Sequence record: OZ346203.1
Source of the DNA: a phage
Direction: 5' to 3' (one strand)
DNA: 48,114 bases
The notes below the pieces were generated by a model. That model saw only the letters and a program-made list of their open reading frames with translations. It had not been told where the DNA came from and did not search any database. The position numbers were made by a program, and so were the translations under genes. Position 1 is the stretch's first letter; the number at the start of each line of letters is the position of its first letter. Below, piece by piece: positions 6,256 through 36,608 of this stretch.

Positions 6256-7227
6256 ATGGCTAAAAAATATGATGAACTAGATGCTACGATTGTAGCGAAT
6301 CATTTGCAGATTCAGGGTGTTAAGTCCGACGCTTCTGATATGGGTATTTGGACCGCTCAAGAGCTACACAAGATCCGCTCTACCGCATACGAGAAAGAGT
6401 ATCCGGCAGGTTCCGCGCTTCGCGTATTCCCTGTAACAAACGAGCTTTCTGATACTGATAAGACTTTCGAGTATCAGACTTTTGATAAGGTTGGCTACGC
6501 GAAAATTATCGCCGACTACACCGATGATCTGCCGACCGTGGACGCGCTGATGACTTCTGAGTTTGGCAAAGTGTTCCGCCTGGGTAACGCTTATCTGATC
6601 TCCATTGATGAGATTAAAGCAGGTCAGCGAACTGGCAAGAGCCTGTCAACTCGCAAGGCTAACGCTGCGCAAAATGCACATGATCAGTTGATTAACTTCC
6701 TGGTGTTCAAAGGTTCCAAGCCTCATAAAATCGTTTCCGTTTTCAATCACCCTAACCTTACGAAAATTGTTTCTAAAGGGTGGATGAGCCAGGACGGCAA
6801 CACCAAGTTCCCGGAAGTGGCAAGCGATGAACTGGAGGCTGCAATCGAAACGATCGAGGAAGTAACCAAAGGTCAGCACCGCGCGACTAACATCCTGATC
6901 CCGCCGTCCATGCGTAAAGTCCTGACGGTTCGAATGGAAAATACCACTGAAAGTTATCTTGAATACTTCCAGAAGCAAAACGGCGGTATCACTATCGACT
7001 CTATCGCAGAGCTTGAGGATATTGACGGCAAAGGTACGAAAGGTTGCTTGGTTTACGAAAAAGATCCAATGAACATGAGCATTGAGATTCCAGAAGCGTT
7101 TAACATGCTTCCGGCGCAGCCAAAAGACCTACATTTCAAGGTTCCTTGCACTTCCAAGTGTACTGGCCTTACGATTTATCGTCCGTTTACGATGGTGCTT
7201 ATTACTGGCTTGAAAAAAGCTGGGTAA
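6256..7227 (+). CDS. major capsid protein (putative)
   Basis: 323 aa; strong GGAGG RBS; flanked by intrinsic terminators on both sides, typical of a highly expressed capsid gene. Confidence 0.7.
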   Translation: MAKKYDELDATIVANHLQIQGVKSDASDMGIWTAQELHKIRSTAYEKEYPAGSALRVFPVTNELSDTDKTFEYQTFDKVGYAKIIADYTDDLPTVDALMTSEFGKVFRLGNAYLISIDEIKAGQRTGKSLSTRKANAAQNAHDQLINFLVFKGSKPHKIVSVFNHPNLTKIVSKGWMSQDGNTKFPEVASDELEAAIETIEEVTKGQHRATNILIPPSMRKVLTVRMENTTESYLEYFQKQNGGITIDSIAELEDIDGKGTKGCLVYEKDPMNMSIEIPEAFNMLPAQPKDLHFKVPCTSKCTGLTIYRPFTMVLITGLKKAG

Positions 7228-7238
7228 TTAGATAACAT

Positions 7239-7268
7239 GGGGAGCCTTAAGGGTTCCCCCTTTTTTTT
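7239..7268 (+). terminator. intrinsic terminator after major capsid gene
   Basis: GGGGAGCC/GGGTTCCCC stem plus T8. Confidence 0.65.
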
Positions 7269-7286
7269 ATTTATGGAGTACACAAA

Positions 7287-7553
7287 ATGAGCAAAACTTT
7301 AAAACTTAAAGTAACTGGCGTTTGCATGATTATTATGGACGGTAAGCGTTATCATCCTGGCGATGAAATTGAAATTGAATCCGATCGCATTAATGATTCC
7401 GCAGTTGAATACCTGATCGCTCGCGGTGATGTGGAAGTTAAAGACAATTCCGAAATTAACGAGCAAATCAAGGCGAAAGCGGAGAAGAAGCGCAAAAAAG
7501 ATCCTACCGAGGGTAAGAGCCGCAAAGAGCTAGAGGATGGCGGCGAATATTAA
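7287..7553 (+). CDS. hypothetical protein (head module)
   Basis: 88 aa; GGAG RBS; lysine-rich C-terminus. Confidence 0.5.
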
Positions 7554-7599
7554 TAATTGGGGCGCTTATGCGCCCTTTGTCACATCTGGAGAAAACAAA

Positions 7600-8019
7600 A
7601 TGGTAGATGAATTTTACACAGACGCTGAAATCATGCAGCAAATCGTAAAGTTAGCCCCACCAATGCAACAAGTTGATCCCGATTTAATTGTGGCATGGAT
7701 TGAGCTTGCTAAAGAGTTTGTTTGCAAAAAACGGTTTAAAAACTCATACCCGAAAGCGGTTGCGCTTTACACTCTTCACCTTATGACCTTAGACGGGGCA
7801 ATGAAACAGGAAGGTGAAAGCGTAGAAAGCTACTCCCGCCGCGTTGCCTCGTTCACTCTGACTGGTGAGTTTAGTCAGACGTTTGATCGAATTTCTTCCG
7901 ATACAAGCGGAAAGCAGATCCGACAAACGCCGTGGGGCAAAATGTACGAAGTGTTAAACCGTAAGCACGGTGGCGGCTTTGGCCTTGTGACTGGATTGCG
8001 CCGGAGATGCTGCCGATGA
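7600..8019 (+). CDS. putative head-tail connector/adaptor protein
   Basis: 139 aa from ATG 7600 (after hairpin 7558-7576 and GGAG RBS); track start 7537 lies upstream of the hairpin. Confidence 0.4.
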
Positions 8020-8387
8020 ACTACAATGAGATTGCAAGAATGGCTACGGCTGGGATTAACTTTTTCAGCGATGCTAACGGTATGTTTAAGTGCATCACGC
8101 AGCAGGGAGGGGTTGAGATTATCGGCGGAGAGGAAGTTACCAAGCCGGAGATTTCAGTGATGATAAAGGGGCTTGTTAGATCTCCGAGGACTAGAGAGGT
8201 TGACGGTGAAACAATCCGAGTAACCGACAAGTTGGGGATATTCACCAATGAAACTGAGATCAAAAATGGTTATCAGATTGAAGTTGATGGCGAACGTTAT
8301 GTTGTCGTTGAAGCAAGACCAGTCAGGCAGACTAACATCACGGCGGCTTATCGTCCAATATTAAGGAGGATTGCTGTGCATGGCTGA
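8016..8387 (+). CDS. putative head-tail joining protein
   Basis: 123 aa; ATGA overlap with upstream stop; GGAG RBS. Confidence 0.4.
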
Positions 8388-8823
8388 TAATTATAAGATC
8401 AGGGAATTTCACGGTGATATAAGCAGGTGGATTGATTCAGTAAGCAGCGGCCTTGTTGATTGCGTTGAAATGTTCGCGACAAACGTCCACGAGGATCTTG
8501 TAAATCGCTCGCCAGTTGATACGGGCCGATATAAAGCCAACTGGCAGATAACAGCAAACAAGCCGCCGCTATATGCGCTCAACCAATACGATCGCGATGG
8601 TGGTAAAACCATTGCAGAAGGTAAGCGAGCAATATATGCAATCATGCGTGGCGGTGGCGCGGTGCGGTCAATCTATTTTTCAAACATGCTCATTTACGCC
8701 AACGCGCTTGAATACGGGCATTCAAAACAAGCGCCGTCCGGCGTACTTGGAATCGTGGCGGTAAAGCTGCGATCTTATATGGCTAAGGCAATAAAGGATT
8801 CGAGGGCAAAAAATGCACTATGA
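8380..8823 (+). CDS. putative tail completion / neck protein
   Basis: 147 aa from ATG 8380 with AAGGAGGA RBS (track start 8371 is TTG). Confidence 0.4.
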   Translation: MADNYKIREFHGDISRWIDSVSSGLVDCVEMFATNVHEDLVNRSPVDTGRYKANWQITANKPPLYALNQYDRDGGKTIAEGKRAIYAIMRGGGAVRSIYFSNMLIYANALEYGHSKQAPSGVLGIVAVKLRSYMAKAIKDSRAKNAL

Positions 8824-9978: not shown

Positions 9979-10296
9979 ATGGCAAAGATGAAACTAACGT
10001 TAGGCCCACTGCCTGATTTTAAGCTGCCTGTTTCTTTCGTGCTTCCAAATGGTGATGAGCAAGTTATTGTTTTTACCGTGCGCCACAAGAAGGCAAGCGA
10101 GATTCACGAACGATACACGGCAGAAAAGCCGATGAGTGACGTAGAAATGATCACTTTCCTTGCTTCCGGTTGGGATCTGGAAGATGAATTTAACGAGGAA
10201 AACGTTGCTAAATTGCTGGATTATTACCCTTCTGCTTCATTATCGCTGACTGGTCATTATATGAAAGCACTTGCGGGGCAGCGGGTAAAAAACTAA
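9979..10296 (+). CDS. tail assembly chaperone G
   Basis: 105 aa; AAGGAG RBS; ends ...GQRVKN with slippery A_AAA_AAC at 10287-10293 just before TAA. Confidence 0.75.
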   Translation: MAKMKLTLGPLPDFKLPVSFVLPNGDEQVIVFTVRHKKASEIHERYTAEKPMSDVEMITFLASGWDLEDEFNEENVAKLLDYYPSASLSLTGHYMKALAGQRVKN

Positions 10297-15828: not shown

Positions 15829-15852
15829 TACCCGCCTTGCGCGGGTTTTTTT
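15829..15852 (+). terminator. intrinsic terminator after gpI-like gene
   Basis: CCCGC/GCGGG stem plus T7. Confidence 0.6.
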
Positions 15853-15901
15853 GTGCCTTTATAATGTTCAAACCAAGAAACAGCACAAAAGGTTAAAAGT
15901 C

Positions 15902-18900
15902 ATGGCTAAACATATGATAAGCGGCAGTAAGGGCGGAAGCAAAAAGCCATACGTGCCAAAAGAGATGGAAGATAACCTGATCTCGATAAACAAGATTAAA
16001 GTTTTGCTGGCTGTATCTGATGGCGAGTGCGATCCAGATTTCACGTTGCGTGATCTTTATCTTGATGATGTTCCTGTAATTGCCAGCGATGGCACTGTTA
16101 ACTATGAGGGGGTAACGGCTGAATATAGGCCAGGCACACAGACGCAAGATTACATCCAGGGGTTTACTGACACATCAAGCGAGGTGACAGTTTCGCGAGA
16201 TATTACAGCAGACAATCCCTATATTATCTCTGTAACAAACAAAAATCTTTCCGCAATCAGAATCAAGATTCTGATGCCAACTGGCATAAAACAGGAGGAT
16301 AACGGCGATCTTGTTGGTGTAAGGGTTCAATATGCCGTAGATATGGCTGTTGATGGCGGTTCTTATAACGAGGTTATGAGAGATGTAATTGACGGCAAGA
16401 CAAGATCAGGGTATGACCGCAGCAGAAGGATTGATCTTCCTAAGTTTGAGGAGCGCGTTTTAATCAGAGTTAAGCGACTGACTCCAGATAGCACATCTTC
16501 AAAGGTGACTGATAAAATCAAACTGCAAAGTTACGCTGAGGTTGTGGATGCAAAATTCCGTTATCCTCTGACTGGACTTGTATTCGTAGAATTTGACAGC
16601 GAATTGTTTCCTACGCAAATCCCTAACATTTCTATAAAAAAGAAATGGAAGATTATTAATGTGCCAAGCAACTACGATCCAATATCAAGAGAATATCACG
16701 GGTCATGGGATGGTACTTTTAAAAAAGCGTGGTCAAATAATCCTGCATGGGTTCTTTATGATCTGGTGACGAATCAGCGTTATGGACTTGACCAGCGAGA
16801 GTTAGGAATACAGATCGACAAGTGGAGCTTATACGAGGCAGGTGTTTACTGTGATCAGAAAGTTCCAGACGGCAAGGGCGGGACAGAGCCTCGCTACCTA
16901 TGCGATGTGGTGATCCAGAATCAAGTAGAGGCTTATCAGCTAATCCGTGACATTTGCTCAATCTTTCGCGGAATGAGCTTTTGGAATGGAGAGAGCTTAT
17001 CAATCGTGATTGATAAACCGCGCGATCCATCATACGTGTTTACTAATGAAAACGTCATCAACGGTGATTTTCAGTACACAGCAGCAAGCGAAAAAAGCAT
17101 GTACACGCAATGTAATGTGACGTTTGACGACGAACAAAACATGTATCAACAGGACGTCGAGGGTGTTTTTGATACTGAGGCGGCATTACGATTTGGATAC
17201 AATCCAACAAGCATTACAGCGATCGGGTGTACACGCAGGAGCGAAGCGAATCGTCGCGGTCGGTGGGTTTTGAAAACAAACCTTAGAAGCACTACTGTAA
17301 ACTTTGCTACTGGACTGGAGGGGATGATTCCATCAATAGGTGATGTGATTGCTATCGCTGATAATTTTCAGAGCAGCAACCTAACGTTAAACCTATCGGG
17401 CCGAGTGATGGAAGTTTCAGGATTGCAGGTTTTCGTTCCGTTTAAGGTTGATGCTCGTCCTGGTGATTTTATTATCATCAACAAGCCGGACGGCAAGCCA
17501 GTTAAGCGAACGATCTCAAAGGTGAGCGCAGACGGAAAAACCATTGAGTTAAATATTGGATTTGGTTTTGATGTTAAGCCTGATACTGTTTTTGCGATTG
17601 ACCGTACTGACCTTGCGTTGCAGCAATACGTTGTGACAACTATCAGCAAGGGTGATGACGAAAACGAGTTTACCTTTTCAATCACGGCTGTGGAGTACGA
17701 TCCGAACAAATACGACGAGATTGATTATGGCGTAAACATTGATGACAGGCCAACTTCAATTGTTCAGCCTGACGTGATGGTAGCGCCTGAGAACGTGCAG
17801 ATCTCTTCTTATTCTCGCGTCGTGCAGGGTGTAAGCGTTGAAACTATGGTTGTGTCGTGGGATAAAGTGCCTTATGCATCGCTGTATGAAATGCAGTGGC
17901 GTAAAGGTGATGGAAACTGGCTGAATACACCACAGACCGCAAACAAAGAAGTTGAGGTTGAAGGTATTTATTCAGGTAACTACCAAGTAAGGGTGAGATC
18001 TGTTTCTGCTTCCGGTTCTACGTCGCCGTGGTCAAAGATTGCAACCGCCACCCTGACAGGTAAAGTTGGCGAGCCAGGAGCGCCGATTAATCTTACAGCT
18101 TCTGATAATGAAGTTTTTGGCATTCGTGTTAAATGGGGTATGCCGGAAGGATCAGGCGATACGGCTTACATTGAGCTTCACCAATCGCCGGATGGGACGG
18201 TGGAAAACTCAAGTTTGCTTACGCTGATCCCGTATCCTCAATATGAGTATTGGCATAGCACGTTACCAGCGGGTCAAGTTGTATGGTATAGAATCCGTAG
18301 CGTTGACAGGATCGGCAACGTTTCCGGCTGGACTGACTTTGTTCGCGGCATGGCGTCAGATGATGTTGAATCTGTTTTAGGCGACATTCTGGACAAGATT
18401 TTTGATACCGAAGCGGGTCAAGAAATCAAAGAGAACGCCATAGACAGTGCAAACAAAATCAAAGACCAGGCGCAATCAATCATCCAGAACGCATTGGCAA
18501 ACGATGCCGATGTGAAGTGGACGCGAGTACAAAACGGAAAGCGTAAGGCTGAATATGGTCATGCACTGGAGCTTATTGCTACCGAAACGGAGGCGCGAGT
18601 AACTCAAATCGAAGAGTTAAAGGCGTCAATTGATGAAGATATAGTTTCAAGTATCAAAACCGTTCAGGAAGCGATTGCCAACGAATCAGAGACGCGAGCT
18701 ACTCAAGTGCAGCAGCTTGATTCTAAATTTACGAAGGAAATAGACGGCGTAAAACGAGATACGGCTGCAAGTATTGGCGAGGTAAGGCAAACAATTGCCA
18801 ATGAATCAGAAGCGCGCGCCCAGGCAGTTCAGCAGCTTGACGCCAAGTTTACGAAAGAGATAAACGACCTTGACGAAGTTATCAAGACCGAAGTCGAGGC

Positions 18901-19480
18901 TAACATCTCAGAAGTGAAACAGGCGATCGCTAATGAGACAGAGGCGAGGGTTCAGGCTGACCAGGCTTTAACAGCCAAATTCGGAGACGTTGAATCAGCA
19001 CTAGCCGAAAAACTTGATTCGTGGGCTAACGTTGATTCGGTTGGCGCTAAGTACGCTATGAAATTGGGCCTTACTTACAAGGGACAGAAGTACAGCGCAG
19101 GAATGATCATGCAGTTGTCGCAATCTTCTCAAGGCTTGATCTCGCAAATCTTGTTTGATGCTAACAGGTTCGCGATCATGACTAGCTCTACTGGCGGAAC
19201 GTTTACTTTGCCTTTCGTTGTTGAAAACAACCAGGTTTTCATTAACAGCCTGCTAGTGAAAAACGGGTCCATTACTAACGCAATGATTGGTAACGTGATT
19301 CAGTCAAATAACTTTGTTCAGAATCAGCAAGGATGGAGGCTTGATAAAAATGGTAACTTTGAGAACTACGGAACGAGAGCGGGGGAAGGTGCTACAAAAT
19401 TCACTAACGAAGGATTAAAGGTGAAAGATGCAAATGGACAATTGAGGGTTGAAATAGGGAGAATAACCGGAAGTTGGTAA
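15902..19480 (+). CDS. central tail fibre / host specificity protein J
   Basis: 1192 aa from ATG 15902; N-terminus resembles lambda J; fibronectin-III-like region; imperfect C-terminal repeats. Confidence 0.85.
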   Translation: MAKHMISGSKGGSKKPYVPKEMEDNLISINKIKVLLAVSDGECDPDFTLRDLYLDDVPVIASDGTVNYEGVTAEYRPGTQTQDYIQGFTDTSSEVTVSRDITADNPYIISVTNKNLSAIRIKILMPTGIKQEDNGDLVGVRVQYAVDMAVDGGSYNEVMRDVIDGKTRSGYDRSRRIDLPKFEERVLIRVKRLTPDSTSSKVTDKIKLQSYAEVVDAKFRYPLTGLVFVEFDSELFPTQIPNISIKKKWKIINVPSNYDPISREYHGSWDGTFKKAWSNNPAWVLYDLVTNQRYGLDQRELGIQIDKWSLYEAGVYCDQKVPDGKGGTEPRYLCDVVIQNQVEAYQLIRDICSIFRGMSFWNGESLSIVIDKPRDPSYVFTNENVINGDFQYTAASEKSMYTQCNVTFDDEQNMYQQDVEGVFDTEAALRFGYNPTSITAIGCTRRSEANRRGRWVLKTNLRSTTVNFATGLEGMIPSIGDVIAIADNFQSSNLTLNLSGRVMEVSGLQVFVPFKVDARPGDFIIINKPDGKPVKRTISKVSADGKTIELNIGFGFDVKPDTVFAIDRTDLALQQYVVTTISKGDDENEFTFSITAVEYDPNKYDEIDYGVNIDDRPTSIVQPDVMVAPENVQISSYSRVVQGVSVETMVVSWDKVPYASLYEMQWRKGDGNWLNTPQTANKEVEVEGIYSGNYQVRVRSVSASGSTSPWSKIATATLTGKVGEPGAPINLTASDNEVFGIRVKWGMPEGSGDTAYIELHQSPDGTVENSSLLTLIPYPQYEYWHSTLPAGQVVWYRIRSVDRIGNVSGWTDFVRGMASDDVESVLGDILDKIFDTEAGQEIKENAIDSANKIKDQAQSIIQNALANDADVKWTRVQNGKRKAEYGHALELIATETEARVTQIEELKASIDEDIVSSIKTVQEAIANESETRATQVQQLDSKFTKEIDGVKRDTAASIGEVRQTIANESEARAQAVQQLDAKFTKEINDLDEVIKTEVEANISEVKQAIANETEARVQADQALTAKFGDVESALAEKLDSWANVDSVGAKYAMKLGLTYKGQKYSAGMIMQLSQSSQGLISQILFDANRFAIMTSSTGGTFTLPFVVENNQVFINSLLVKNGSITNAMIGNVIQSNNFVQNQQGWRLDKNGNFENYGTRAGEGATKFTNEGLKVKDANGQLRVEIGRITGSW
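18600..19020 (+). repeat. imperfect in-frame repeats in J C-terminal region
   Basis: recurring IANESE(T/A)RA.QVQQLD.KFTKEI units at protein level. Confidence 0.5.
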
Positions 19481-22291: not shown

Positions 22292-22960
<669 letters not shown>

Positions 22961-23003: not shown

Positions 23004-23456
23004 ATGCACGTTATTACAGGTGAGATCCGAAAAGAGCCAAAAGTAAAGCAAATGCCTAACGGCAGCACGCTATATGTTGTTGAGCTTTCCGAACGATATA
23101 AAGACCGTGAAGGCAATTGGCAGTATACAAACTATGTATTTTTCTTTAACGCGAAAACAGACGGCCTGAATGGTTGGTATGCTGAGGCGTTCCAGGTAGG
23201 CAAGGTTATTTCTGTTTCCTGCGATACCTTGCGAGTTGAAACGCGAGAATACAACGGAAAGATTTACAGCACCGTGCAGCCTGGCGGATTTGCAAACCTG
23301 CTATTTAGCCAGCGCGGAGAAAGCCAGCAACAATATCAGCAGCGAACACAAGGAGGCTGGGGGCAACCACAGCAGCAACAGCAACAAAACACTCAACAGC
23401 AGCCACAGCAAAGCAATCAGCCTCCGATTGACTTTGACGACGATATACCATTCTGA
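23004..23456 (+). CDS. ssb: single-stranded DNA-binding protein
   Basis: 150 aa from ATG 23004 (track start 22953 is TTG inside a terminator); OB-fold-like N-terminus, Gln/Gly-rich linker, acidic tip DFDDDIPF. Confidence 0.85.
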   Translation: MHVITGEIRKEPKVKQMPNGSTLYVVELSERYKDREGNWQYTNYVFFFNAKTDGLNGWYAEAFQVGKVISVSCDTLRVETREYNGKIYSTVQPGGFANLLFSQRGESQQQYQQRTQGGWGQPQQQQQQNTQQQPQQSNQPPIDFDDDIPF

Positions 23457-23460
23457 TAAC

Positions 23461-23491
23461 AAAAAGCCCCGCATGTGCGGGGCATTTTTTT
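23461..23491. terminator. bidirectional terminator between ssb and tail fibre gene
   Basis: GCCCCGCA/TGCGGGGC hairpin with A5 upstream and T7 downstream. Confidence 0.65.
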
Positions 23492-26120
23492 AGTTAAGAG
23501 TAGTAGGATTGTTGATTAGCTTTGACAGTAAATCTTTTAATTCTGCAACCTCATTTTCAAGTTTGCTTATGCGATCATCACTTTCACGGCATACTTTCAC
23601 AAGCAATCCAGTAACAGCACCATAATCAACAGATAAGAATCTTTCCTCGCCAACTAACTGATTTCCATCCTTAGTTGGACCAGCAAGATCCGTGTACTGA
23701 GTGAATCCGCCAACAGCTTCCGGTATTGCCTCCATTACTTCTTGAGCAATTACCCCAGCATAAGGTAAACCATTCTCCTTAAGCGTGTAAGTGTATCCGC
23801 TCATTTTGCGCAATGATTCAGTCGCGTTTTCAATCTCCTCAATGTTGTCCTTAAGATCTCTGTCAGATACTTGATTGAATGCCGTCGCATTTACAGGGCC
23901 GTTAACTTGAAGATGCTTTGAGTTATCTTTATTTAACTGACCGTAAAAAATCCACCCAGGGCCGTTATCGAAAGCCCACTCAATAACAGACGGTCTATCT
24001 GACCCGTTCCCCCACAATTTGAAACTTGCAGGGTGTGATGAGTTTCCGTCGTTCTGCATATTGAAATACTTACCACTCGGTCGGTCTATCTCTAAACTCG
24101 CCGCCTGTACATATGCTTTTCCCGCAAAGTCTTTCGTACCTAACACAACCCCAGAATCGATAAGTTCAACCTTGCTTTTCGTTATGTCATTTAGAAATAA
24201 CGCACTCGTTCCAGTATCTTTACCTAAAAACCAAAGACGTGTGCCTGCGGAGTTGTACCCTGTTACGTGCAGCGGTTGGTTGTTTGTTGATGCTGTTCCG
24301 TCGATACGAAAACCGCCATTAGCGGTTGTAACTTTAATGCTTGGTACGGTCATAGCGAATGTGCCACTGGCCGCAAGGCCGTTATACGCGATCAGCTTGT
24401 TGTCATACGAAAGGCCGCCATCATCACGCAGCTGTAGCACTTTCTGCGACGTGCGGTTGCGAATGCCAACATCCGTGCCTCCTACAAACATTTCGACGAT
24501 TCGATCACCGCTTTTAGCTCTCACGTAAGCGTTATATTCCGGCGACGACCCCGCGTTATACAACTCGTACCATTTAGACCAGATGCCAGTAGTCGCGTTA
24601 CTAAGCCATCGCATAAAGCGACGCCCGCTATTGTATCCTGTAAACGTCTGTATGCAGCTTTTAGGATCGTTAGCGCCAGTGCGCTGAACAAGTAGACAAC
24701 CTGCTTCCTGAACGGGATAATTACGCTCCGGCGTTGCGTTGGCAGATAAGCTAGTATAATAAAATCCAGCCTTATCACCCTGAAGGATGTTAAGGTCTTC
24801 ACTAACCAACGTTGCCCGGCGCTCATGCATGACCTGAAGGTTTGCGCGCGCTCCCTGGTCGTTCGATGCTCCTGTCCCGCCGTCACCGATCGCCACGTCA
24901 CCATTAGCACCCAGCTTCGCCAGTTCAATGGCACCCACATTTCCAGATGAGCCGTTAATCGCGGCATTGTTTCCAGCGAAAACCTTCACGCGAGAGGTCA
25001 GGTAGTCAACGTTAAACGCAAAAAATGTGTCACCAGCACCCCCGCACACCCCAGGACCATATTTGAACGGCGTCATCTCGCCCGAAGGGAACTGAGAAAT
25101 ATCATCAACGCGCCAAAAGCCGCCTTTGACCGAATCGCGCAACCGCTTGAGCATATCCCTTACGCCAGTCGGCGCAGGTAATGTTACACCCGCATACGGC
25201 ACTCTATTTTGAGCTTCTGAACTTTCAGCAGCAGCCGCTGCGCGATCAGCCTCTGTTTTAGCCTTGTTTGCACTGTTTGCAGCATTAGTTTCCGATGTTT
25301 TAGCGTTTGTTTCAGAAGTCTTCGCGGCACTAGCCGAGTTAGCAGCATTAGTTTCCGATGTTTTAGCCGCATTCTTACTTGCATTAGCTGCATTTTCAGA
25401 TGCTTTGGCATTAGTTTCCGCTGTTTTAGCGTTTGTTTCAGAAGTCTTCGCGGCACTAGCCGAGTTAGCAGCATTAGTTTCCGATGTTTTAGCCGCATTC
25501 TTACTTGCATTAGCTGCATTTTCAGATGCTTTGGCATTAGTTTCCGATGTTTTAGCGTTTGTTTCAGAAGTCTTCGCGGCACTAGCCGAGTTAGCAGCAT
25601 TAGTTTCCGATGTTTTAGCCGCATTCTTACTTGCATTAGCTGCATTTTCAGATGCTTTGGCATTAGTTTCCGATGTTTTAGCGTTTGTTTCAGAAGTCTT
25701 TGCAGCACTAGCGCTCTGTTTTGCTGATTCAGCGCCTTGTTTCACCTGATTCACAAGATCTTTCAACCCATCAAGATCGAAATCTCTAAAAAATTCAAGC
25801 GCGTCAGCAATCTCCGTTTCCTTGCTTTGATAGTAACGCAGTGTTTCCGCTACGTCCTGCGCCAGCCCGTCAACCGTCAACGAGTCATGAAGCAAGATCA
25901 GGTAATTTGTCTTCTGGACTACCGCGCCGCCAGTAGTAATTGCGCGAATGCTTGTATCGCTAATCACCTCTGTAATCACAGCAGCTTGCAAAGGTTGAGT
26001 AAGAAAGAAAATAGTTGCACCTGGGCGAATCAATGTTAATTGCTCACGCCATTTTGTATCGTAACCAGTTACATAACCTTGCGCGTCCATAGACGCTTGG
26101 CCTTGTCTGTAAATCGCCAT
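23490..26120 (-). CDS. tail fibre protein (Stf-like) with C-terminal intramolecular chaperone (peptidase S74-type) domain
   Basis: 876 aa from ATG 26120 with AGGAGG RBS (track start 26144 is GTG inside the conserved element); SETNAK-type repeats; C-terminal S74-type chaperone segment. Confidence 0.8.
25270..25700. repeat. 126-bp tandem repeat (about 3.3 copies, 63-bp sub-period) inside tail fibre gene
   Basis: near-identical units starting about 25318, 25444, 25570; encode 42-aa repeats rich in [20 protein letters not shown]. Confidence 0.85.
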
Positions 26121-26137
26121 TTGTAAAATCCTCCTAA

Positions 26138-26153
26138 ATAGCACTTTTTGCTA
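26138..26153 (-). promoter_or_regulatory. copy of the conserved element abutting the RBS of the tail fibre gene
   Basis: minus-strand TTAGCAAAAAGTGCTAT then AGGAGG and ATG 26120. Confidence 0.35.
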
Positions 26154-26185
26154 ATGACAATGCAGATAATAGCATTTTCAAGTGC

Positions 26186-26210
26186 AAAAAAAAACCCCGC
26201 ATAAGCGGGG
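26186..26210 (-). terminator. intrinsic terminator after primase
   Basis: minus-strand CCCCGC/GCGGGG hairpin followed by T8. Confidence 0.6.
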
Positions 26211-26226
26211 CAATACTAGCGGAGTT

Positions 26227-27156
26227 TTATAGCAGTGATTCGGGCTTGTAGAGTTTTCTTTCTACGCCCTGTTTAAAATTATCGTTAACAGGCATCATTA
26301 TGTCAAGACCTCTTTCCTCTGCCGCGATTATCACATCACGATCATCTTTCCGGCAGACTACGCGCATTCTTCTTTCTCCTTTATATCTATGCGCAACCAT
26401 TTCAAGATTTGAAGGAGTAAAACAGGCCCACACCTCTTGACCAGTTGATAAATGAACGTGTTGGGAGTCAACCCAATCAAGGCACAAATAGATCGTCTTA
26501 TCCGTGCTACCTGTTTTAACAACAGATCCGCGCGTGTAGTCGCGAGCTAAAAACCAATCCTTTCCATCCTCATCAATGAAAAGCACGTTACACATTTCAT
26601 CATCCAGCCCGTCATCATGCACCAGGTGACAAGGTAGCGCGTGAATGTATCGACCATCCTTGACGCCGCAATCATAATGACAATCTTCCGGCGGATATAT
26701 CCCCTCATAAACGCTTAAAGGTGTGCGATCGAATTTTAATGTTTTTGCCATCACTTTTTCGCAGCATTCATGACTTGCCTGTTTCCCGAACGAGTAGCCA
26801 GAAGAACGTGAAGCGCGTTTGTTTGCTCTGATCCTGTAATCTTGTGGCACTTTGCCGAGGAAGCGGCCCAAAATGTTGATGGCCTCGCTGTAAGGTTCGC
26901 CAGTCAATTTCATTAACCAACCGATTCCAGTGTCGTTACCGCACACGTTGCAGATCGCGCCGCCGTCGCCCTCTTCGTTTAGCTTATCAGTCCATCTAAA
27001 ACGATCCTTACCGCCGCAGTGTGGGCAAGGCTGATGCTTTTTGTTGAAAACATCGCTATGCAGTCCGCAAATGCTTTGTAATGCTTCACGCCATAACCCC
27101 TTCATATATGGCAAAACGTCTTCTTTCTGATAGGTCATAAAGTTTTCAGTATTCAT
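26227..27156 (-). CDS. DNA primase (zinc-binding, putative)
   Basis: 309 aa from ATG 27156 with GAGGT RBS; Zn-ribbon CPHCGGKDRF...CNVCGN; followed by terminator. Confidence 0.6.
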   Translation of the reverse strand: MNTENFMTYQKEDVLPYMKGLWREALQSICGLHSDVFNKKHQPCPHCGGKDRFRWTDKLNEEGDGGAICNVCGNDTGIGWLMKLTGEPYSEAINILGRFLGKVPQDYRIRANKRASRSSGYSFGKQASHECCEKVMAKTLKFDRTPLSVYEGIYPPEDCHYDCGVKDGRYIHALPCHLVHDDGLDDEMCNVLFIDEDGKDWFLARDYTRGSVVKTGSTDKTIYLCLDWVDSQHVHLSTGQEVWACFTPSNLEMVAHRYKGERRMRVVCRKDDRDVIIAAEERGLDIMMPVNDNFKQGVERKLYKPESLL

Positions 27157-27166
27157 AGCAACCTCA

Positions 27167-27203
27167 ATAAAAAAGCCCAGCAAATATTATCATTTCGCTG
27201 GGC
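27167..27203 (-). terminator. putative terminator after HTH gene
   Basis: minus-strand GCCCAGC/GCTGGGC stem with long loop, followed by T-rich run. Confidence 0.4.
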
Positions 27204-31000: not shown

Positions 31001-31258
31001 ATGAAAAAAGAGAGAAGCGTTTATTTAAATGAAACTGGCGAATGGTTGTTATTTCGCGCTATGGTGTGCGATGCACTTGATAAAAATCCTAACGTGAAAA
31101 AGATGATTGATTGCGATCCGTGGGAATTTTCAAGCGCATTAGATATGAGCTTTGAGGAGACAAGAAAACTCCCGCTTGAAAAATGGCACGAACAAATCAG
31201 AAATGACATGCAAGAGTTTGTCGATTCGTGGAATTTTCAGCACGGAATGATCCACTAA
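31001..31258 (+). CDS. hypothetical protein
   Basis: 85 aa; its stop is embedded in the conserved element TAATAGCAC. Confidence 0.5.
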   Translation: MKKERSVYLNETGEWLLFRAMVCDALDKNPNVKKMIDCDPWEFSSALDMSFEETRKLPLEKWHEQIRNDMQEFVDSWNFQHGMIH

Positions 31259-31301
31259 TAGCACTTTTTGTTAAAACGCCCGGCCTAGTGTCGGGCATAA
31301 T
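31258..31301 (+). promoter_or_regulatory. long-spacer promoter-like module upstream of 31334 operon
   Basis: ATAGCAC 31258-31264, TTGTTA 31268-31273, spacer with inverted repeat, CATAAT 31296-31301. Confidence 0.55.
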
Positions 31302-31333
31302 TATTTCAACGAAGCAAACATGAGGAAATAAAA

Positions 31334-34438: not shown

Positions 34439-34474
34439 AATTTTACCTTTTGGTTGTTTCGTTTCGATGAAACA

Positions 34475-34518
34475 AATATACCCGACACTAGGCCGGGCGT
34501 TTTAACAAAAAATGCTAT
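34475..34518 (-). promoter_or_regulatory. long-spacer promoter-like module upstream of 34438 gene
   Basis: minus-strand ATAGCAT-TTT-TTGTTA, 22 bp, TATATT; shares an identical 31-nt stretch with the 31258 copy. Confidence 0.55.
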
Positions 34519-34635
34519 TCCATACGCTTTACCGTAACCAGTAATACACCATCATCATTGCATAAAACATGTTCAGTGGTGCTAAAAGCGCGCATATCTG
34601 AATAAAGTAGCGTAAGTAAAGCATGAATAAAATCC

Positions 34636-35031
34636 TCATGTGATATTGAATTTACGGCGCAGTGCTTCAAGATCTTGTCTATTAGCTTTTGCCTGGAACA
34701 ATTCATCATCGCCCATCTCCCCTATTCTCGCCATATCCCTGATCCAGTCGTTGCGCATACCATCCAGGCTATACAATTCGAATCCGAAAGGCCGCTTTGA
34801 CGATCCTTTGGACCAGTATTTTCCGCAGACCCCATCTATATAACCAGCCGTCATCATTCTTGCGCAAAATTCCTTAGATGCAAGGCTGGCGAACATTCGC
34901 GGCGTAAGTCCGGCGGCCCGTGCGAGCCGCTCACATTCTCTATGCTGATAGATAAATTTGGCTATGTGCTGCCTGTTAAACCAGTCGTATGACTCACACC
35001 ATTTATACAGATCAAGCAAAAACATAATCAT
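34636..35031 (-). CDS. hypothetical protein
   Basis: 131 aa; ATGA start overlap with stop of the 526-aa gene. Confidence 0.45.
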   Translation of the reverse strand: MIMFLLDLYKWCESYDWFNRQHIAKFIYQHRECERLARAAGLTPRMFASLASKEFCARMMTAGYIDGVCGKYWSKGSSKRPFGFELYSLDGMRNDWIRDMARIGEMGDDELFQAKANRQDLEALRRKFNIT

Positions 35032-36608
35032 CCCAGCAGTATTGGATTGACAAAAATAACACCATTAATCACACAAACATAATTTCTTTCTTCCAGCATT
35101 GGCAGCAAGTGCCCTTCTATCCTCTTCATTACGCCAGCCTGACCAACGAAAGGTTTTACCTTTCTCGCCGATTCGTACAGGGCGCGAATATTCAGGATAC
35201 CTTTGTTAGCCTTGCCGTGCCTCGTGATCAATTCAATCAATTTACCCATTTCAGCATCATCACCAGCATAACCAGAAGCATTGGCGGCGCTAATGTATGT
35301 TTTGCTCAATTCCTGAAACATGATCAACGCCTCTTGCATTGTTTCCACGTCGATCTCTTTCGACTTCTGCGGGTATCCGGCAGGATTAAACCAGTTACGG
35401 ATAACATGCAGGACGGAAGCAAGCCTGATCACCTGTTTATCCATTTTACCCAGCGCACCGCGTAACATTGTATGAGAATACTTTCCGCCGTCTGCAAGAT
35501 GCGGTTCCATATCCTGGCGAGCAATGTTGAGCACTCGCATAGCTGAGCGGCTTATTTTCAGCGATATATTTGATTCGCTCATGATGTTATGCACCAATTG
35601 ATAATATTGGGCTTTCAATTCAGAATCCACCGCCTCATAGGTAGAATCACCATTTTCATCAATGAATGAGCGACGGCCTAAGAATGATTCTTCGCGGACC
35701 AACAAAAAGCGCTCACTCACACCGATACCGCGCGATCCAGCGTCCATGATACCGCTTATCGTTTCATCCTGTGCTATAACGCTCATGCATCCAAGCGCGC
35801 GAAAACTCATATTATTGTCAGCATTAGCACGGGCAATTGATACGTGACCATTATCCCACGCCTTAAGCACTAGCTCACTGTTAGTCTTCCTTTCGCTATT
35901 TGCATAGGTCAAGCCTAACAGGCTATTAATACTTGTTGCTTCGTCAGATATTACGGCAAAGTTACCTTGCTTGTTGTTGATTTTCGCCAAGCCTTCTGGA
36001 GTTGTATCTGAAACAGGAAAAGTTATATCACACATTTTTTCCAGCTTTTCCTCCAGATCCTCTTTTTCCTGGTATAGAGATTCCATATCAGCGCCGGATC
36101 TTTCGCTTTTCATCTCCTTTGCAAGACCTGCCAGCTTTGCCTGTATTTTCTTTCTTTCCTTGCGGCGTTGCTCGTTGATCTTCTCAACTTCCGCAATCAT
36201 CGGAGCAATAGCCATACTGTTGATCGCAGATTTACCAGTTGACGGCGGCTGGCTTGTAACGACGTAAAGCGCAGTCGGCTGATCGGTTCCGTGATAGTCA
36301 ACCGTAAAGCGTCCAAGCATAGCGGCAGAAATGCAGCCGATAAAGTGCATGTAAGCCGATGATTCAGGGAATTGAACGGATCGCGCAATGCTGCGTGATA
36401 ACTTGCCTACAACATCAATATCATTACCAAGAGAAATAACGGGGTAGCGATCGTGACCGCTATTCACATCCTTTACGTCGCCCCAAAAGCTGGACGACTG
36501 GCGATAGCCGTTAGCCTGAATTGATACGCGAACTGGCGAAAGGTTCTGGCTTTCAGCCATAGCGATTATTTGCTGTGGAGTTAATTTGTTCGTTTCTAAT
36601 GAAAACAT
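35028..36608 (-). CDS. large early protein, putative replication-associated ATPase (DUF3987-like?)
   Basis: 526 aa; AGGAG RBS; P-loop-like QPPSTGKSA; first gene behind promoter-like element 36637-36680. Confidence 0.35.
   Translation of the reverse strand: MFSLETNKLTPQQIIAMAESQNLSPVRVSIQANGYRQSSSFWGDVKDVNSGHDRYPVISLGNDIDVVGKLSRSIARSVQFPESSAYMHFIGCISAAMLGRFTVDYHGTDQPTALYVVTSQPPSTGKSAINSMAIAPMIAEVEKINEQRRKERKKIQAKLAGLAKEMKSERSGADMESLYQEKEDLEEKLEKMCDITFPVSDTTPEGLAKINNKQGNFAVISDEATSINSLLGLTYANSERKTNSELVLKAWDNGHVSIARANADNNMSFRALGCMSVIAQDETISGIMDAGSRGIGVSERFLLVREESFLGRRSFIDENGDSTYEAVDSELKAQYYQLVHNIMSESNISLKISRSAMRVLNIARQDMEPHLADGGKYSHTMLRGALGKMDKQVIRLASVLHVIRNWFNPAGYPQKSKEIDVETMQEALIMFQELSKTYISAANASGYAGDDAEMGKLIELITRHGKANKGILNIRALYESARKVKPFVGQAGVMKRIEGHLLPMLEERNYVCVINGVIFVNPILLG

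What the first reader, a model, noticed from the sequence alone, without database searches (positions are those of the whole stretch)
23490..26120. Tail fibre gene in the early region: Stf-like repeats, 126-bp tandem DNA repeats and S74-type chaperone domain
An 876-aa minus-strand gene between ssb and primase encodes a fibre with SETNAK-type repeats. At DNA level there are about 3.3 near-identical 126-bp tandem units (about 25270-25700), a likely hotspot for length variation by slipped recombination. The C-terminus carries an S74-type intramolecular chaperone segment that is normally auto-cleaved after trimerisation. The gene is physically separate from the tail module and sits behind a reverse-oriented conserved element and the primase terminator.
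Basis: partly seen in the sequence, partly recalled or inferred. Interest (0 to 1): 0.5.

Follow-up and report, generated by a model that had tools for sequence, protein, structure and literature searches.

The report
T1-like phage side tail fibre gene
This is the ordinary side tail fibre gene of a T1-like coliphage, in its usual place among the replication genes; its one individual feature is a recently expanded in-frame 126-bp repeat that lengthens the fibre's coiled-coil shaft.

Summary
An 876-aa minus-strand gene (23490-26120) lies between ssb and primase. It carries 3.4 copies of a 126-bp in-frame repeat (25282-25712, 98% identical) and a C-terminal Peptidase_S74 chaperone domain with the canonical Ser752/Lys757 pair.

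The window is a Warwickvirus-like member of the Drexlerviridae. The gene is that family's lateral tail fibre. Its position between recombination and primase/helicase genes is the family norm and is already published.

The repeat encodes 42-aa units, each of six heptads. Ala is invariant at heptad position 4 and Ser nearly so at position 7. The units lie inside one predicted 184-residue helix, most likely a triple coiled-coil shaft.

Relatives with the same flanks carry 1, 2, 3, 4 or 7 blocks of 21 aa. The hybrid block in the window is what unequal crossover in a JLBYU41-like ancestor would produce. So the "length-variation hotspot" idea is supported by comparison. What the variation does for the phage is not known.

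The "reverse-oriented conserved element" is the known 21-nt Drexlerviridae intergenic repeat, here inverted.

Verdict: a new allele of a known kind, of low to moderate interest.

The parts
23490..26120 (-). Lateral (side) tail fibre gene: 876 codons plus stop. The precursor is 93.2 kDa.
   Evidence: ORF list, translation, PHROG tail-fibre hits and syntenic annotated homologues in Poky, JLBYU26, JLBYU41 and damhaus.
26130..26135 (-). Shine-Dalgarno AGGAGG, 9 nt upstream of the ATG at 26120.
   Evidence: Read directly from the sequence.
26135..26156 (+). One copy of the Drexlerviridae 21-nt intergenic repeat (consensus aaATAGCACnnnTTGnTAAAA). It reads on the + strand, so it is inverted relative to the fibre gene, and it lies between the putative promoter and the RBS.
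   Evidence: The motif scan found 15 copies against 0.07 expected. The consensus is published for phage TLS (PMC11447400). The copy is conserved at this position in T1, Warwickvirus and other relatives.
26166..26174 (-). Putative extended -10 promoter TGCTATTAT for the fibre gene. This is an inference.
   Evidence: Read from the sequence. The same AATGCTATTAT is kept in Warwickvirus and Hanrivervirus relatives, and T1 has TTGCAA-N17-TAAAAT at the equivalent place. The tool's two-hexamer scan did not call it.
26194..26211 (-). Intrinsic terminator of the upstream primase gene: a 7-bp GC stem followed by T9.
   Evidence: Terminator scan.
23466..23483 (.). Bidirectional intrinsic terminator shared by ssb (+) and the fibre gene (-).
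   Evidence: The terminator scan called it on both strands.
25893..26120 (-). N-terminal beta domain (aa 1-76), the presumed virion anchor. It is followed by a helix at aa 83-113 (25782-25874).
   Evidence: AF2 model. Residues 1-130 are conserved in 892 phage records. The domain is homologous to the N-terminus of HK633 Stf and of RAD2 DpK2, PDB 7LZJ.
25224..25775 (-). One continuous predicted alpha-helix (aa 116-299), inferred to be a triple coiled-coil shaft.
   Evidence: In the AF2 model the ten-residue blocks covering aa 121-280 have mean pLDDT 82-93. Ala is at heptad position 4 in 21 of 21 heptads and Ser at position 7 in 20 of 21. The homologous DpK2 N-terminus is a triple helical bundle by cryo-EM (PMC8552709).
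25282..25712 (-). Tandem array: 3.4 copies of 126 bp, which is 42 aa or 6 heptads per copy. The 63-bp blocks are ordered A1-B-A2-B-A2'-B-A3 (aa 137-280).
   Evidence: TRF, register and differences between copies, block comparison with relatives.
24834..24887 (-). [18 protein letters not shown] junction motif (aa 412-429), a module boundary shared with a lambdoid Stf.
   Evidence: BLASTP against HK633 Stf gives 45% identity at E=5e-7. It is nearly invariant in the 58-sequence alignment.
23868..24833 (-). Beta-rich distal region (aa 430-751), the presumed receptor-binding part. It is exchanged between Drexlerviridae and Dhillonvirus phages.
23493..23867 (-). Peptidase_S74 / intramolecular chaperone auto-processing domain (aa 752-876, 13.8 kDa). 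The Ser752 codon is at 23865-23867 and the Lys757 codon at 23850-23852. A C-terminal helix spans aa 833-869.

Best explanation
The gene encodes the lateral (side) tail fibre of a T1-like siphovirus of the Drexlerviridae, close to the genus Warwickvirus. It sits at the family's standard locus between the recombination genes and the primase/helicase genes. It is its own transcription unit: the primase terminator lies upstream, it has its own promoter-like site and RBS, and a bidirectional terminator lies downstream.

The protein is a modular homotrimer with five parts:
- An N-terminal beta domain anchors it to the tail tip.
- A roughly 184-residue helix forms a three-stranded coiled-coil shaft.
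- A proximal beta region ends in a conserved GDGGTGA..ARANL junction.
- A beta-rich distal region binds a surface glycan of the host. By analogy this is O-antigen or LPS; the receptor is not known.
- A C-terminal S74 chaperone domain drives trimer folding and then cuts itself off before Ser752, using Ser752 and Lys757. This leaves a 79.5-kDa mature fibre and a 13.8-kDa fragment.

The 126-bp array lies wholly within the shaft. It arose by unequal homologous recombination or replication slippage between 63/126-bp periodic repeats. Each change adds or removes whole multiples of three heptads, so the frame and the heptad register are kept and only shaft length changes. One 42-aa unit adds about 6 nm, assuming 0.15 nm rise per residue.

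Shown here: gene identity, synteny, domain map, repeat structure, copy-number differences among relatives, and conservation of Ser and Lys. Inferred: trimeric coiled coil, cleavage, glycan receptor, promoter, and any effect of shaft length on fitness.
For: Identity and synteny:
- 14-38 kb of the window is 96% identical to Warwickvirus genomes.
- Annotated homologues occupy the same slot in Poky, JLBYU26, JLBYU41 and damhaus.
- The BASEL paper describes this locus as fully syntenic across Drexlerviridae, with only the 5' end of the fibre gene conserved (PMC8594841).

Domains:
- PHROG tail-fibre families match and Pfam finds S74.
- The N-terminal region is conserved in 892 phage records.
- PDB 7LZJ matches residues 1-173 at E=4e-61. 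Its N-terminus is a triple helical bundle by cryo-EM.
- AF2 predicts a single helix at 116-299, and the Ala/Ser heptad positions are regular.
- Ser752 is invariant and Lys757 at least 90% conserved in 58 homologues. Both align to the SDxxxK of S16 gp37 and MyRF.

Repeat dynamics:
- Relatives with the same flanks have repeat tracts of 40, 61, 82, 103 and 166 aa, in steps of 21 aa.
- JLBYU41 is A-B-A3 and the window is A1-B-A2-B-A2'-B-A3. Block A2 is a hybrid of the 5' part of A3 and the 3' part of A1.
- Copies inside the window are 98-99% identical, against 96.8% to the best copy in 50,697 phage records. No record there has more than two places matching the unit.

Function in relatives:
- A Drexlerviridae homologue with an ICA domain sets O-antigen-dependent host range (PMC12090712).
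- TLS virions contain a 78-kDa structural protein attributed to the homologous Gp55 (PMC11447400).
Against: - No experiment bears on this particular protein. Cleavage, trimerisation, virion presence and the receptor are all inferred from relatives.
- The structure models are monomers of an obligate trimer. The chaperone region has low confidence (ten-residue blocks with mean pLDDT 41-63), and the Foldseek search on the whole model gave only meaningless OspA-like matches.
- The promoter was not called by the consensus scan.
- A 431-bp array of near-identical units is longer than a short sequencing read, so the copy number in this assembly could be wrong.
- Copy-number differences were seen between related but distinct phages, not within one population. 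The rate of change is therefore unknown.
- BASEL notes that the glycan-binding role of Drexlerviridae lateral fibres has never been demonstrated directly.
Confidence: 0.85

Rival explanations
1. The 3.4-copy array is an assembly artefact. The real phage has fewer or more 126-bp units, for example the 1.4 copies seen in JLBYU41, and the assembler mis-resolved near-identical repeats.
For: The array is 431 bp at 98-99% identity, longer than typical short reads. No deposited phage has more than two places matching the unit.
Against: - The copies are not identical. Three copy-specific substitutions are placed consistently.
- The array stays in frame and in heptad register.
- Independent assemblies carry seven-block tracts of the same total length, including one built only of A/B-type blocks (P0044).
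Confidence: 0.08
2. The repeat tract is neutral, recombination-prone filler. Copy number drifts with no effect on infection, and the shaft simply tolerates any whole number of 21-aa blocks.
For: Tract lengths of 40 to 166 aa all occur with the same anchor and similar distal domains. Several of these phages were isolated on the same K-12 host.
Against: Only in-register lengths are seen. No 5- or 6-block form occurs in the sample, while the 7-block length recurs with three different internal sequences. That hints at preferred lengths. The sample is small and not independent.
Confidence: 0.4
3. The protein is a glycan-degrading tailspike (depolymerase), not a simple binding fibre, as in the Klebsiella Drexlerviridae that share the N-terminus.
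Confidence: 0.07

Closest known systems
Lateral tail fibres of Drexlerviridae (T1, TLS Gp55, Poky gp30, JLBYU26 gp83, BASEL Bas01-13, Cronobacter phage CRES7/9 gp28)
   Same: It has the same genomic slot between ssb/recombination genes and primase. The N-terminal anchor is the same: residues 1-125 (the N-terminal segment) are 100% identical to Poky and JLBYU26 and 60% to T1. The architecture is the same, with a coiled coil, a beta-rich distal part and a C-terminal ICA domain.
   Different: No relative matches along the whole length. It is a mosaic: the anchor resembles Poky/JLBYU26, residues 411-560 resemble JLBYU26, and the chaperone resembles Henu8/P0006. It carries the largest array of the 126-bp unit among 50,697 deposited phages.
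Intramolecular chaperone (Peptidase_S74 / ICA) domains of K1F endosialidase, T5 pb1 L-shaped fibre, S16 gp37, GA-1 neck appendage and MyRF
   Different: Cleavage has not been shown here. The fibre body upstream is unrelated in sequence to those proteins.
Side tail fibre Stf of lambdoid phages (HK633 / phi80 type)
   Same: The N-terminal anchor domain is homologous (35% identity over 80 aa, E=3e-11) and so is the GDGGTGA..ARxNL junction (E=5e-7).
   Different: In that Stf the two modules are about 20 residues apart. Here about 290 residues lie between them, including the repeat shaft. Pfam Phage_fiber_2 is not matched. There is no separate Tfa assembly chaperone gene, and an ICA domain is used instead.
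Klebsiella phage RAD2 depolymerase DpK2 (PDB 7LZJ)
   Same: The N-terminal 173 residues are homologous, including the start of the heptad tract (E=4e-61). That region is an extended triple helical bundle by cryo-EM.
   Different: DpK2 continues into a catalytic beta-helix. This protein continues into a fibre-type distal region and an ICA domain.

Membership tests
Peptidase_S74 / intramolecular chaperone auto-processing domain | Match to Pfam PF13884 above the curated gathering score | tested here: met
   51.3 bits against a cut-off of 22, E=1.5e-13, residues 752-803, profile positions 1-57 of 58.
Peptidase_S74 / intramolecular chaperone auto-processing domain | Nucleophilic Ser at the cleavage site with Lys five residues downstream (S-x4-K). 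The residue numbers in K1F, T5 and MyRF are recalled from the literature. | tested here: met
   Ser752 and Lys757 sit in ...NQV|SDRDLKDNI. Ser is invariant and Lys at least 90% conserved in 58 homologues. The motif aligns to SDRRIK of S16 gp37 and to the corresponding ADLRAK stretch of the MyRF ICA structure 7DC3.
Peptidase_S74 / intramolecular chaperone auto-processing domain | Fold resembling solved chaperone domains, ending in a long C-terminal helix | tested here: inconclusive
Peptidase_S74 / intramolecular chaperone auto-processing domain | Autoproteolytic release after trimerisation | not testable with these tools
   This needs SDS-PAGE or mass spectrometry of the expressed protein or of virions, with S752A and K757A controls.
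Drexlerviridae lateral tail fibre | Conserved N-terminal anchor domain | tested here: met
   Residues 1-130 match 892 phage records. Of these, 836 cover at least 80% of the query, and the match to JLBYU26 is 100% identical.
Drexlerviridae lateral tail fibre | Locus between recombination genes (exonuclease, Erf, SSB) and primase/helicase genes | tested here: met
   Pfam on the neighbouring genes, annotated relatives, and the published synteny (PMC8594841).
Drexlerviridae lateral tail fibre | Structural component of the virion | not testable with these tools
   The only support is indirect: a 78-kDa structural protein in TLS attributed to the homologous Gp55 (PMC11447400).
Lambda-type side tail fibre (Stf) | Homologous N-terminal attachment domain | tested here: met
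   BLASTP against HK633 Stf aligns aa 18-97 with 16-95 at 35% identity, E=3e-11. tblastn also hits several lambdoid Stf genes.
Lambda-type side tail fibre (Stf) | Pfam Phage_fiber_2 repeats | tested here: not met
   No such hit in residues 1-307 even at E up to 10.
Lambda-type side tail fibre (Stf) | Separate downstream tail-fibre assembly chaperone (Tfa) | tested here: not met
   Only 33 nt, holding a terminator, separate the fibre stop codon (23490) from the end of the convergent ssb gene (23456). An ICA domain is present instead.
Phase-variable contingency locus (slippage-driven on/off switching) | Repeat unit not divisible by three, so that copy changes shift the reading frame | tested here: not met
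   The units are 63 and 126 bp. All observed variants stay in frame.

The most novel reading that the evidence does not exclude
The inverted copy of the 21-nt Drexlerviridae repeat, lying between the fibre gene's promoter and its RBS, acts as an operator or 'stoperator'. Under this reading the same unknown factor uses co-oriented copies, which sit a fixed 22 nt upstream of -10-like hexamers, at the promoters of the replication and accessory genes. It holds the fibre gene off until late. That would explain how a structural gene can sit inside the replication module. It would also give a function to a repeat that T1 specialists list as an open question.

A second, related possibility concerns the 21-aa blocks. 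They may act as a selectable length ruler that tunes fibre reach to the thickness of the host's surface glycan layer.
Probability: 0.1. Interest if true: 0.5.

Novelty: new member of a known kind. Interest (0 to 1): 0.22.

Why it matters
Lateral tail fibres set the first, reversible step of host recognition, so their alleles matter when phages are chosen or engineered for therapy. This allele adds a clean natural series: 1, 2, 3, 4 and 7 blocks of 21 aa on otherwise similar fibres. The series could be used to test whether shaft length affects adsorption through O-antigen or capsule. It also shows that fibre length in T1-like phages can change by simple unequal crossover without touching the anchor or the receptor-binding tip. 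Beyond that the gene is ordinary. Its position, architecture and self-cleaving chaperone are already described for the family.

Tried and rejected
- Pfam found nothing in residues 1-307 or 294-751 even at E up to 10.
- A second homologue search with residues 1-310 returned mostly short or partial proteins and did not enlarge the copy-number sample.
- Rfam and the tRNA scan found nothing in the window.
- The GTG start at 26144 was rejected. It has no RBS, and the relatives start at the ATG.
- The ORFs that overlap the array (25184-25708 minus strand, 25264-25749 plus strand) are by-products of the repeat, not genes.
- The two-hexamer promoter scan found no site for the fibre gene. The extended -10 site was proposed by eye and by conservation.
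- A reading as a + strand promoter for the inverted repeat copy was rejected. It lacks the -10-like hexamer that 9 of the 12 co-oriented copies carry 22 nt downstream.

Full report
**What is there**

The window is an almost complete genome of a T1-like siphovirus. Its 14-38 kb stretch is 96-97% identical to Escherichia phages Poky and tonijn. Poky is classified in the record retrieved here as Drexlerviridae, Tempevirinae, genus Warwickvirus.

The gene in the finding is real. The minus-strand ORF runs to an upstream GTG at 26144. The ATG at 26120 has an AGGAGG Shine-Dalgarno 9 nt upstream and is the start used in every relative.

The neighbours are as stated:
- An Erf recombinase gene is at 22307-22960.
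- An SSB gene ends at 23456. Its product ends in DFDDDIPF, and relatives annotate it as SSB.
- A primase with a zinc ribbon is at 26227-27183.
- The GpJ-like tail tip is at 15851-19480, 4 kb away on the other strand.

The gene is bracketed by two terminators. The primase terminator is at 26211-26194. A bidirectional terminator at 23466-23483 is shared with ssb.

**The repeat**

Tandem Repeats Finder gives period 126, 3.4 copies, 25282-25712, 98% matches, no indels and score 841. An underlying 63-bp sub-period is about 68% matched.

The array is in frame. Each unit encodes 42 aa, which is six heptads ([42 protein letters not shown]). The three full copies differ at three nucleotides, two synonymous and one Ser to Ala.

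Across 21 heptads, position 4 is Ala 21 times and position 7 is Ser 20 times. That is an a/d-type spacing of small residues.

An AlphaFold2 model of residues 1-310 has three elements:
- a small beta domain at residues 1-76;
- a helix at 83-113;
- one uninterrupted helix from 116 to 299, in which the ten-residue blocks covering 121-280 have mean pLDDT 82-93.

The N-terminal 173 residues, including the start of the heptad tract, match the depolymerase DpK2 of Klebsiella phage RAD2 (PDB 7LZJ) at E=4e-61. Cryo-EM of DpK2 showed an extended N-terminal triple helical bundle (PMC8552709). I therefore read the repeat tract as a three-stranded coiled-coil shaft. This is an inference, because the model is a single chain.

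**Copy number among relatives**

Fibres that share the lead sequence [10 protein letters not shown] and the cap [11 protein letters not shown] have repeat tracts of 40, 61, 82, 103 or 166 aa. That corresponds to 1, 2, 3, 4 or 7 blocks of 21 aa.

At the DNA level:
- Poky and A16a are A-B'.
- JLBYU41 is A-B-A3.
- The window is A1-B-A2-B-A2'-B-A3.

Block A2 has the 5' end of A3 and the 3' end of A1. An unequal crossover between A1 and A3 of a JLBYU41-like gene would create exactly that hybrid. Two such steps give 3, then 5, then 7 blocks. The one-block forms are the reciprocal deletion.

Only 5 of 50,697 deposited phage genomes contain the 126-bp unit, and none has more than two places matching it. 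The best outside copy is 96.8% identical, against 98-99% between copies inside the window. The expansion is therefore recent and specific to this lineage, or else the copies are being homogenised.

Three caveats apply:
- These are differences between related phages, not within one population.
- The sample is small.
- A 431-bp near-perfect array can be miscounted by short-read assembly.

**The rest of the protein**

PHROG families annotated as tail fibre match at E down to 6e-117.

Residues 1-130 are conserved in 892 phage records, which include Drexlerviridae and Dhillonvirus and, more weakly, lambdoid side tail fibres. Against HK633 Stf the anchor aligns at 35% identity (E=3e-11) and the GDGGTGA..ARxNL junction at 45% (E=5e-7). 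In that Stf the two modules are nearly adjacent and there is no heptad tract. Pfam Phage_fiber_2 is not matched. So 'Stf-like' holds for the anchor and the junction, not for the repeats.

The protein is a mosaic, and no relative matches throughout. The anchor is 100% identical to Poky and JLBYU26. Residues 411-560 are 99% identical to JLBYU26. The first part of the chaperone domain is 100% identical to Henu8 and P0006. The central body is shared at 82-84% nucleotide identity with Dhillonvirus fibres that have a different N-terminus.

**The C-terminal chaperone**

Pfam Peptidase_S74 matches residues 752-803 (51.3 bits, cut-off 22). The domain begins at Ser752 in NQV|SDRDLKDNI, with Lys757 five residues on. 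Ser is invariant and Lys at least 90% conserved in 58 homologues. The stretch aligns to the same motif in S16 gp37 and the MyRF ICA domain.

Cleavage before Ser752 would give a 79.5-kDa fibre and a 13.8-kDa fragment. Two published observations on relatives fit. A Drexlerviridae homologue with this domain determines O-antigen-dependent host range (PMC12090712). TLS virions contain a 78-kDa structural protein attributed to the homologous Gp55 (PMC11447400). Cleavage of this particular protein remains inferred.

**Is the position unusual?**

It is not. The BASEL study describes the lateral tail fibre locus of Drexlerviridae as flanked by conserved, fully syntenic recombination and primase/helicase genes, with only the 5' end of the fibre gene conserved (PMC8594841). 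The same order is annotated in Poky, JLBYU26, JLBYU41 and damhaus.

**The 'reverse-oriented conserved element'**

The motif TTAACAAAAAGTGCTATT occurs 15 times in the window against 0.07 expected. It is the reverse complement of the 21-nt repeat aaATAGCACnnnTTGnTAAAA reported in TLS, T1 and Rtp. That repeat is said to lie in the direction of transcription upstream of start codons, and its function is listed as an open question (PMC11447400).

In the window, 12 copies are co-oriented with the local genes. Nine of these have a -10-like hexamer exactly 22 nt after TTGnTA. Three copies are inverted: one before the likely major capsid gene (6193), one before the gene at 9979, and the one at 26135-26156 just upstream of the fibre RBS.

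The fibre-proximal inverted copy is kept in T1, in Warwickvirus and in several metagenomic relatives, but not in the Hanrivervirus-type upstream region. It lies downstream of a conserved extended -10-like site, TGCTATTAT at 26166-26174. T1 has TTGCAA-N17-TAAAAT at the equivalent place. It could therefore act as an operator. That is speculation, and I give it about 10%.

**Verdict**

What was found is a new mosaic allele of a well-known gene class at its normal locus. Its individual feature is a recent, in-register expansion of a coiled-coil repeat. Interest is low to moderate.

Noticed in passing
window 1565, 6193, 9948, 20730, 26137, 27698, 30187, 31257, 34502, 36664, 37338, 39256, 39762, 41066, 45466 (18-nt cores): There are fifteen intergenic copies of the Drexlerviridae 21-nt repeat (aaATAGCACnnnTTGnTAAAA), against 0.07 expected by chance. 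In 9 of the 12 copies co-oriented with the local genes, a -10-like hexamer (CATAAT, TATATT, TACATT, TATTAT or TAAAAT) lies exactly 22 nt after TTGnTA. The spacer often contains a GC hairpin. Three copies (6193, 9948, 26137) are inverted and sit just upstream of structural genes. The function of the repeat is an open question in the literature.
   Followed up: partly
window 31257-31318 and 34458-34519: A 62-nt inverted repeat, 89% complementary, brackets a 3.1-kb block of plus-strand genes (about 31.3-34.5 kb). Each arm holds a 21-nt repeat copy plus the same hairpin. It may simply be two copies of one promoter or terminator cassette facing each other.
   Followed up: no
relatives P0006, P0013, P0025, P0028, P0044, P0055, L036 (JLBYU26) and window 25245-25742: Eight fibres have a repeat tract in the same seven-block length class (166 aa by the composition measure; 163 for P0055) but three different internal sequences. 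These are pure A/B blocks as in the window, a different A/B order in P0044, and a form with a unique TDAQRYRYESENF... insert of three blocks. No 5- or 6-block form was seen. This could reflect a preferred shaft length, gene conversion, or chance.
   Followed up: partly
window 18669-18746 and 18789-18866: Two 78-nt direct repeats, 74% identical and 120 nt apart, lie inside the GpJ-like tail tip gene near its C-terminal receptor-binding part.
   Followed up: no
window 23369-23410: A 9-bp periodic CAG/CAA-rich tract encodes the Gln-rich linker of the SSB, just before its DFDDDIPF tail. Pfam does not recognise this SSB.
   Followed up: no
L038 (JLBYU41) 174-1754 and L039 (damhaus) 6830-8654: Hanrivervirus relatives carry four extra small genes between the fibre gene and ssb. 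These genes are absent from the window and from Warwickvirus relatives, and the GenBank record of damhaus already marks repeat regions inside its fibre gene.
   Followed up: no
window 35028-36608 (-): A 526-aa protein with a DUF3987 domain (E=2e-44) lies in the minus-strand block and has a co-oriented 21-nt repeat 56 nt upstream of its start.
   Followed up: no
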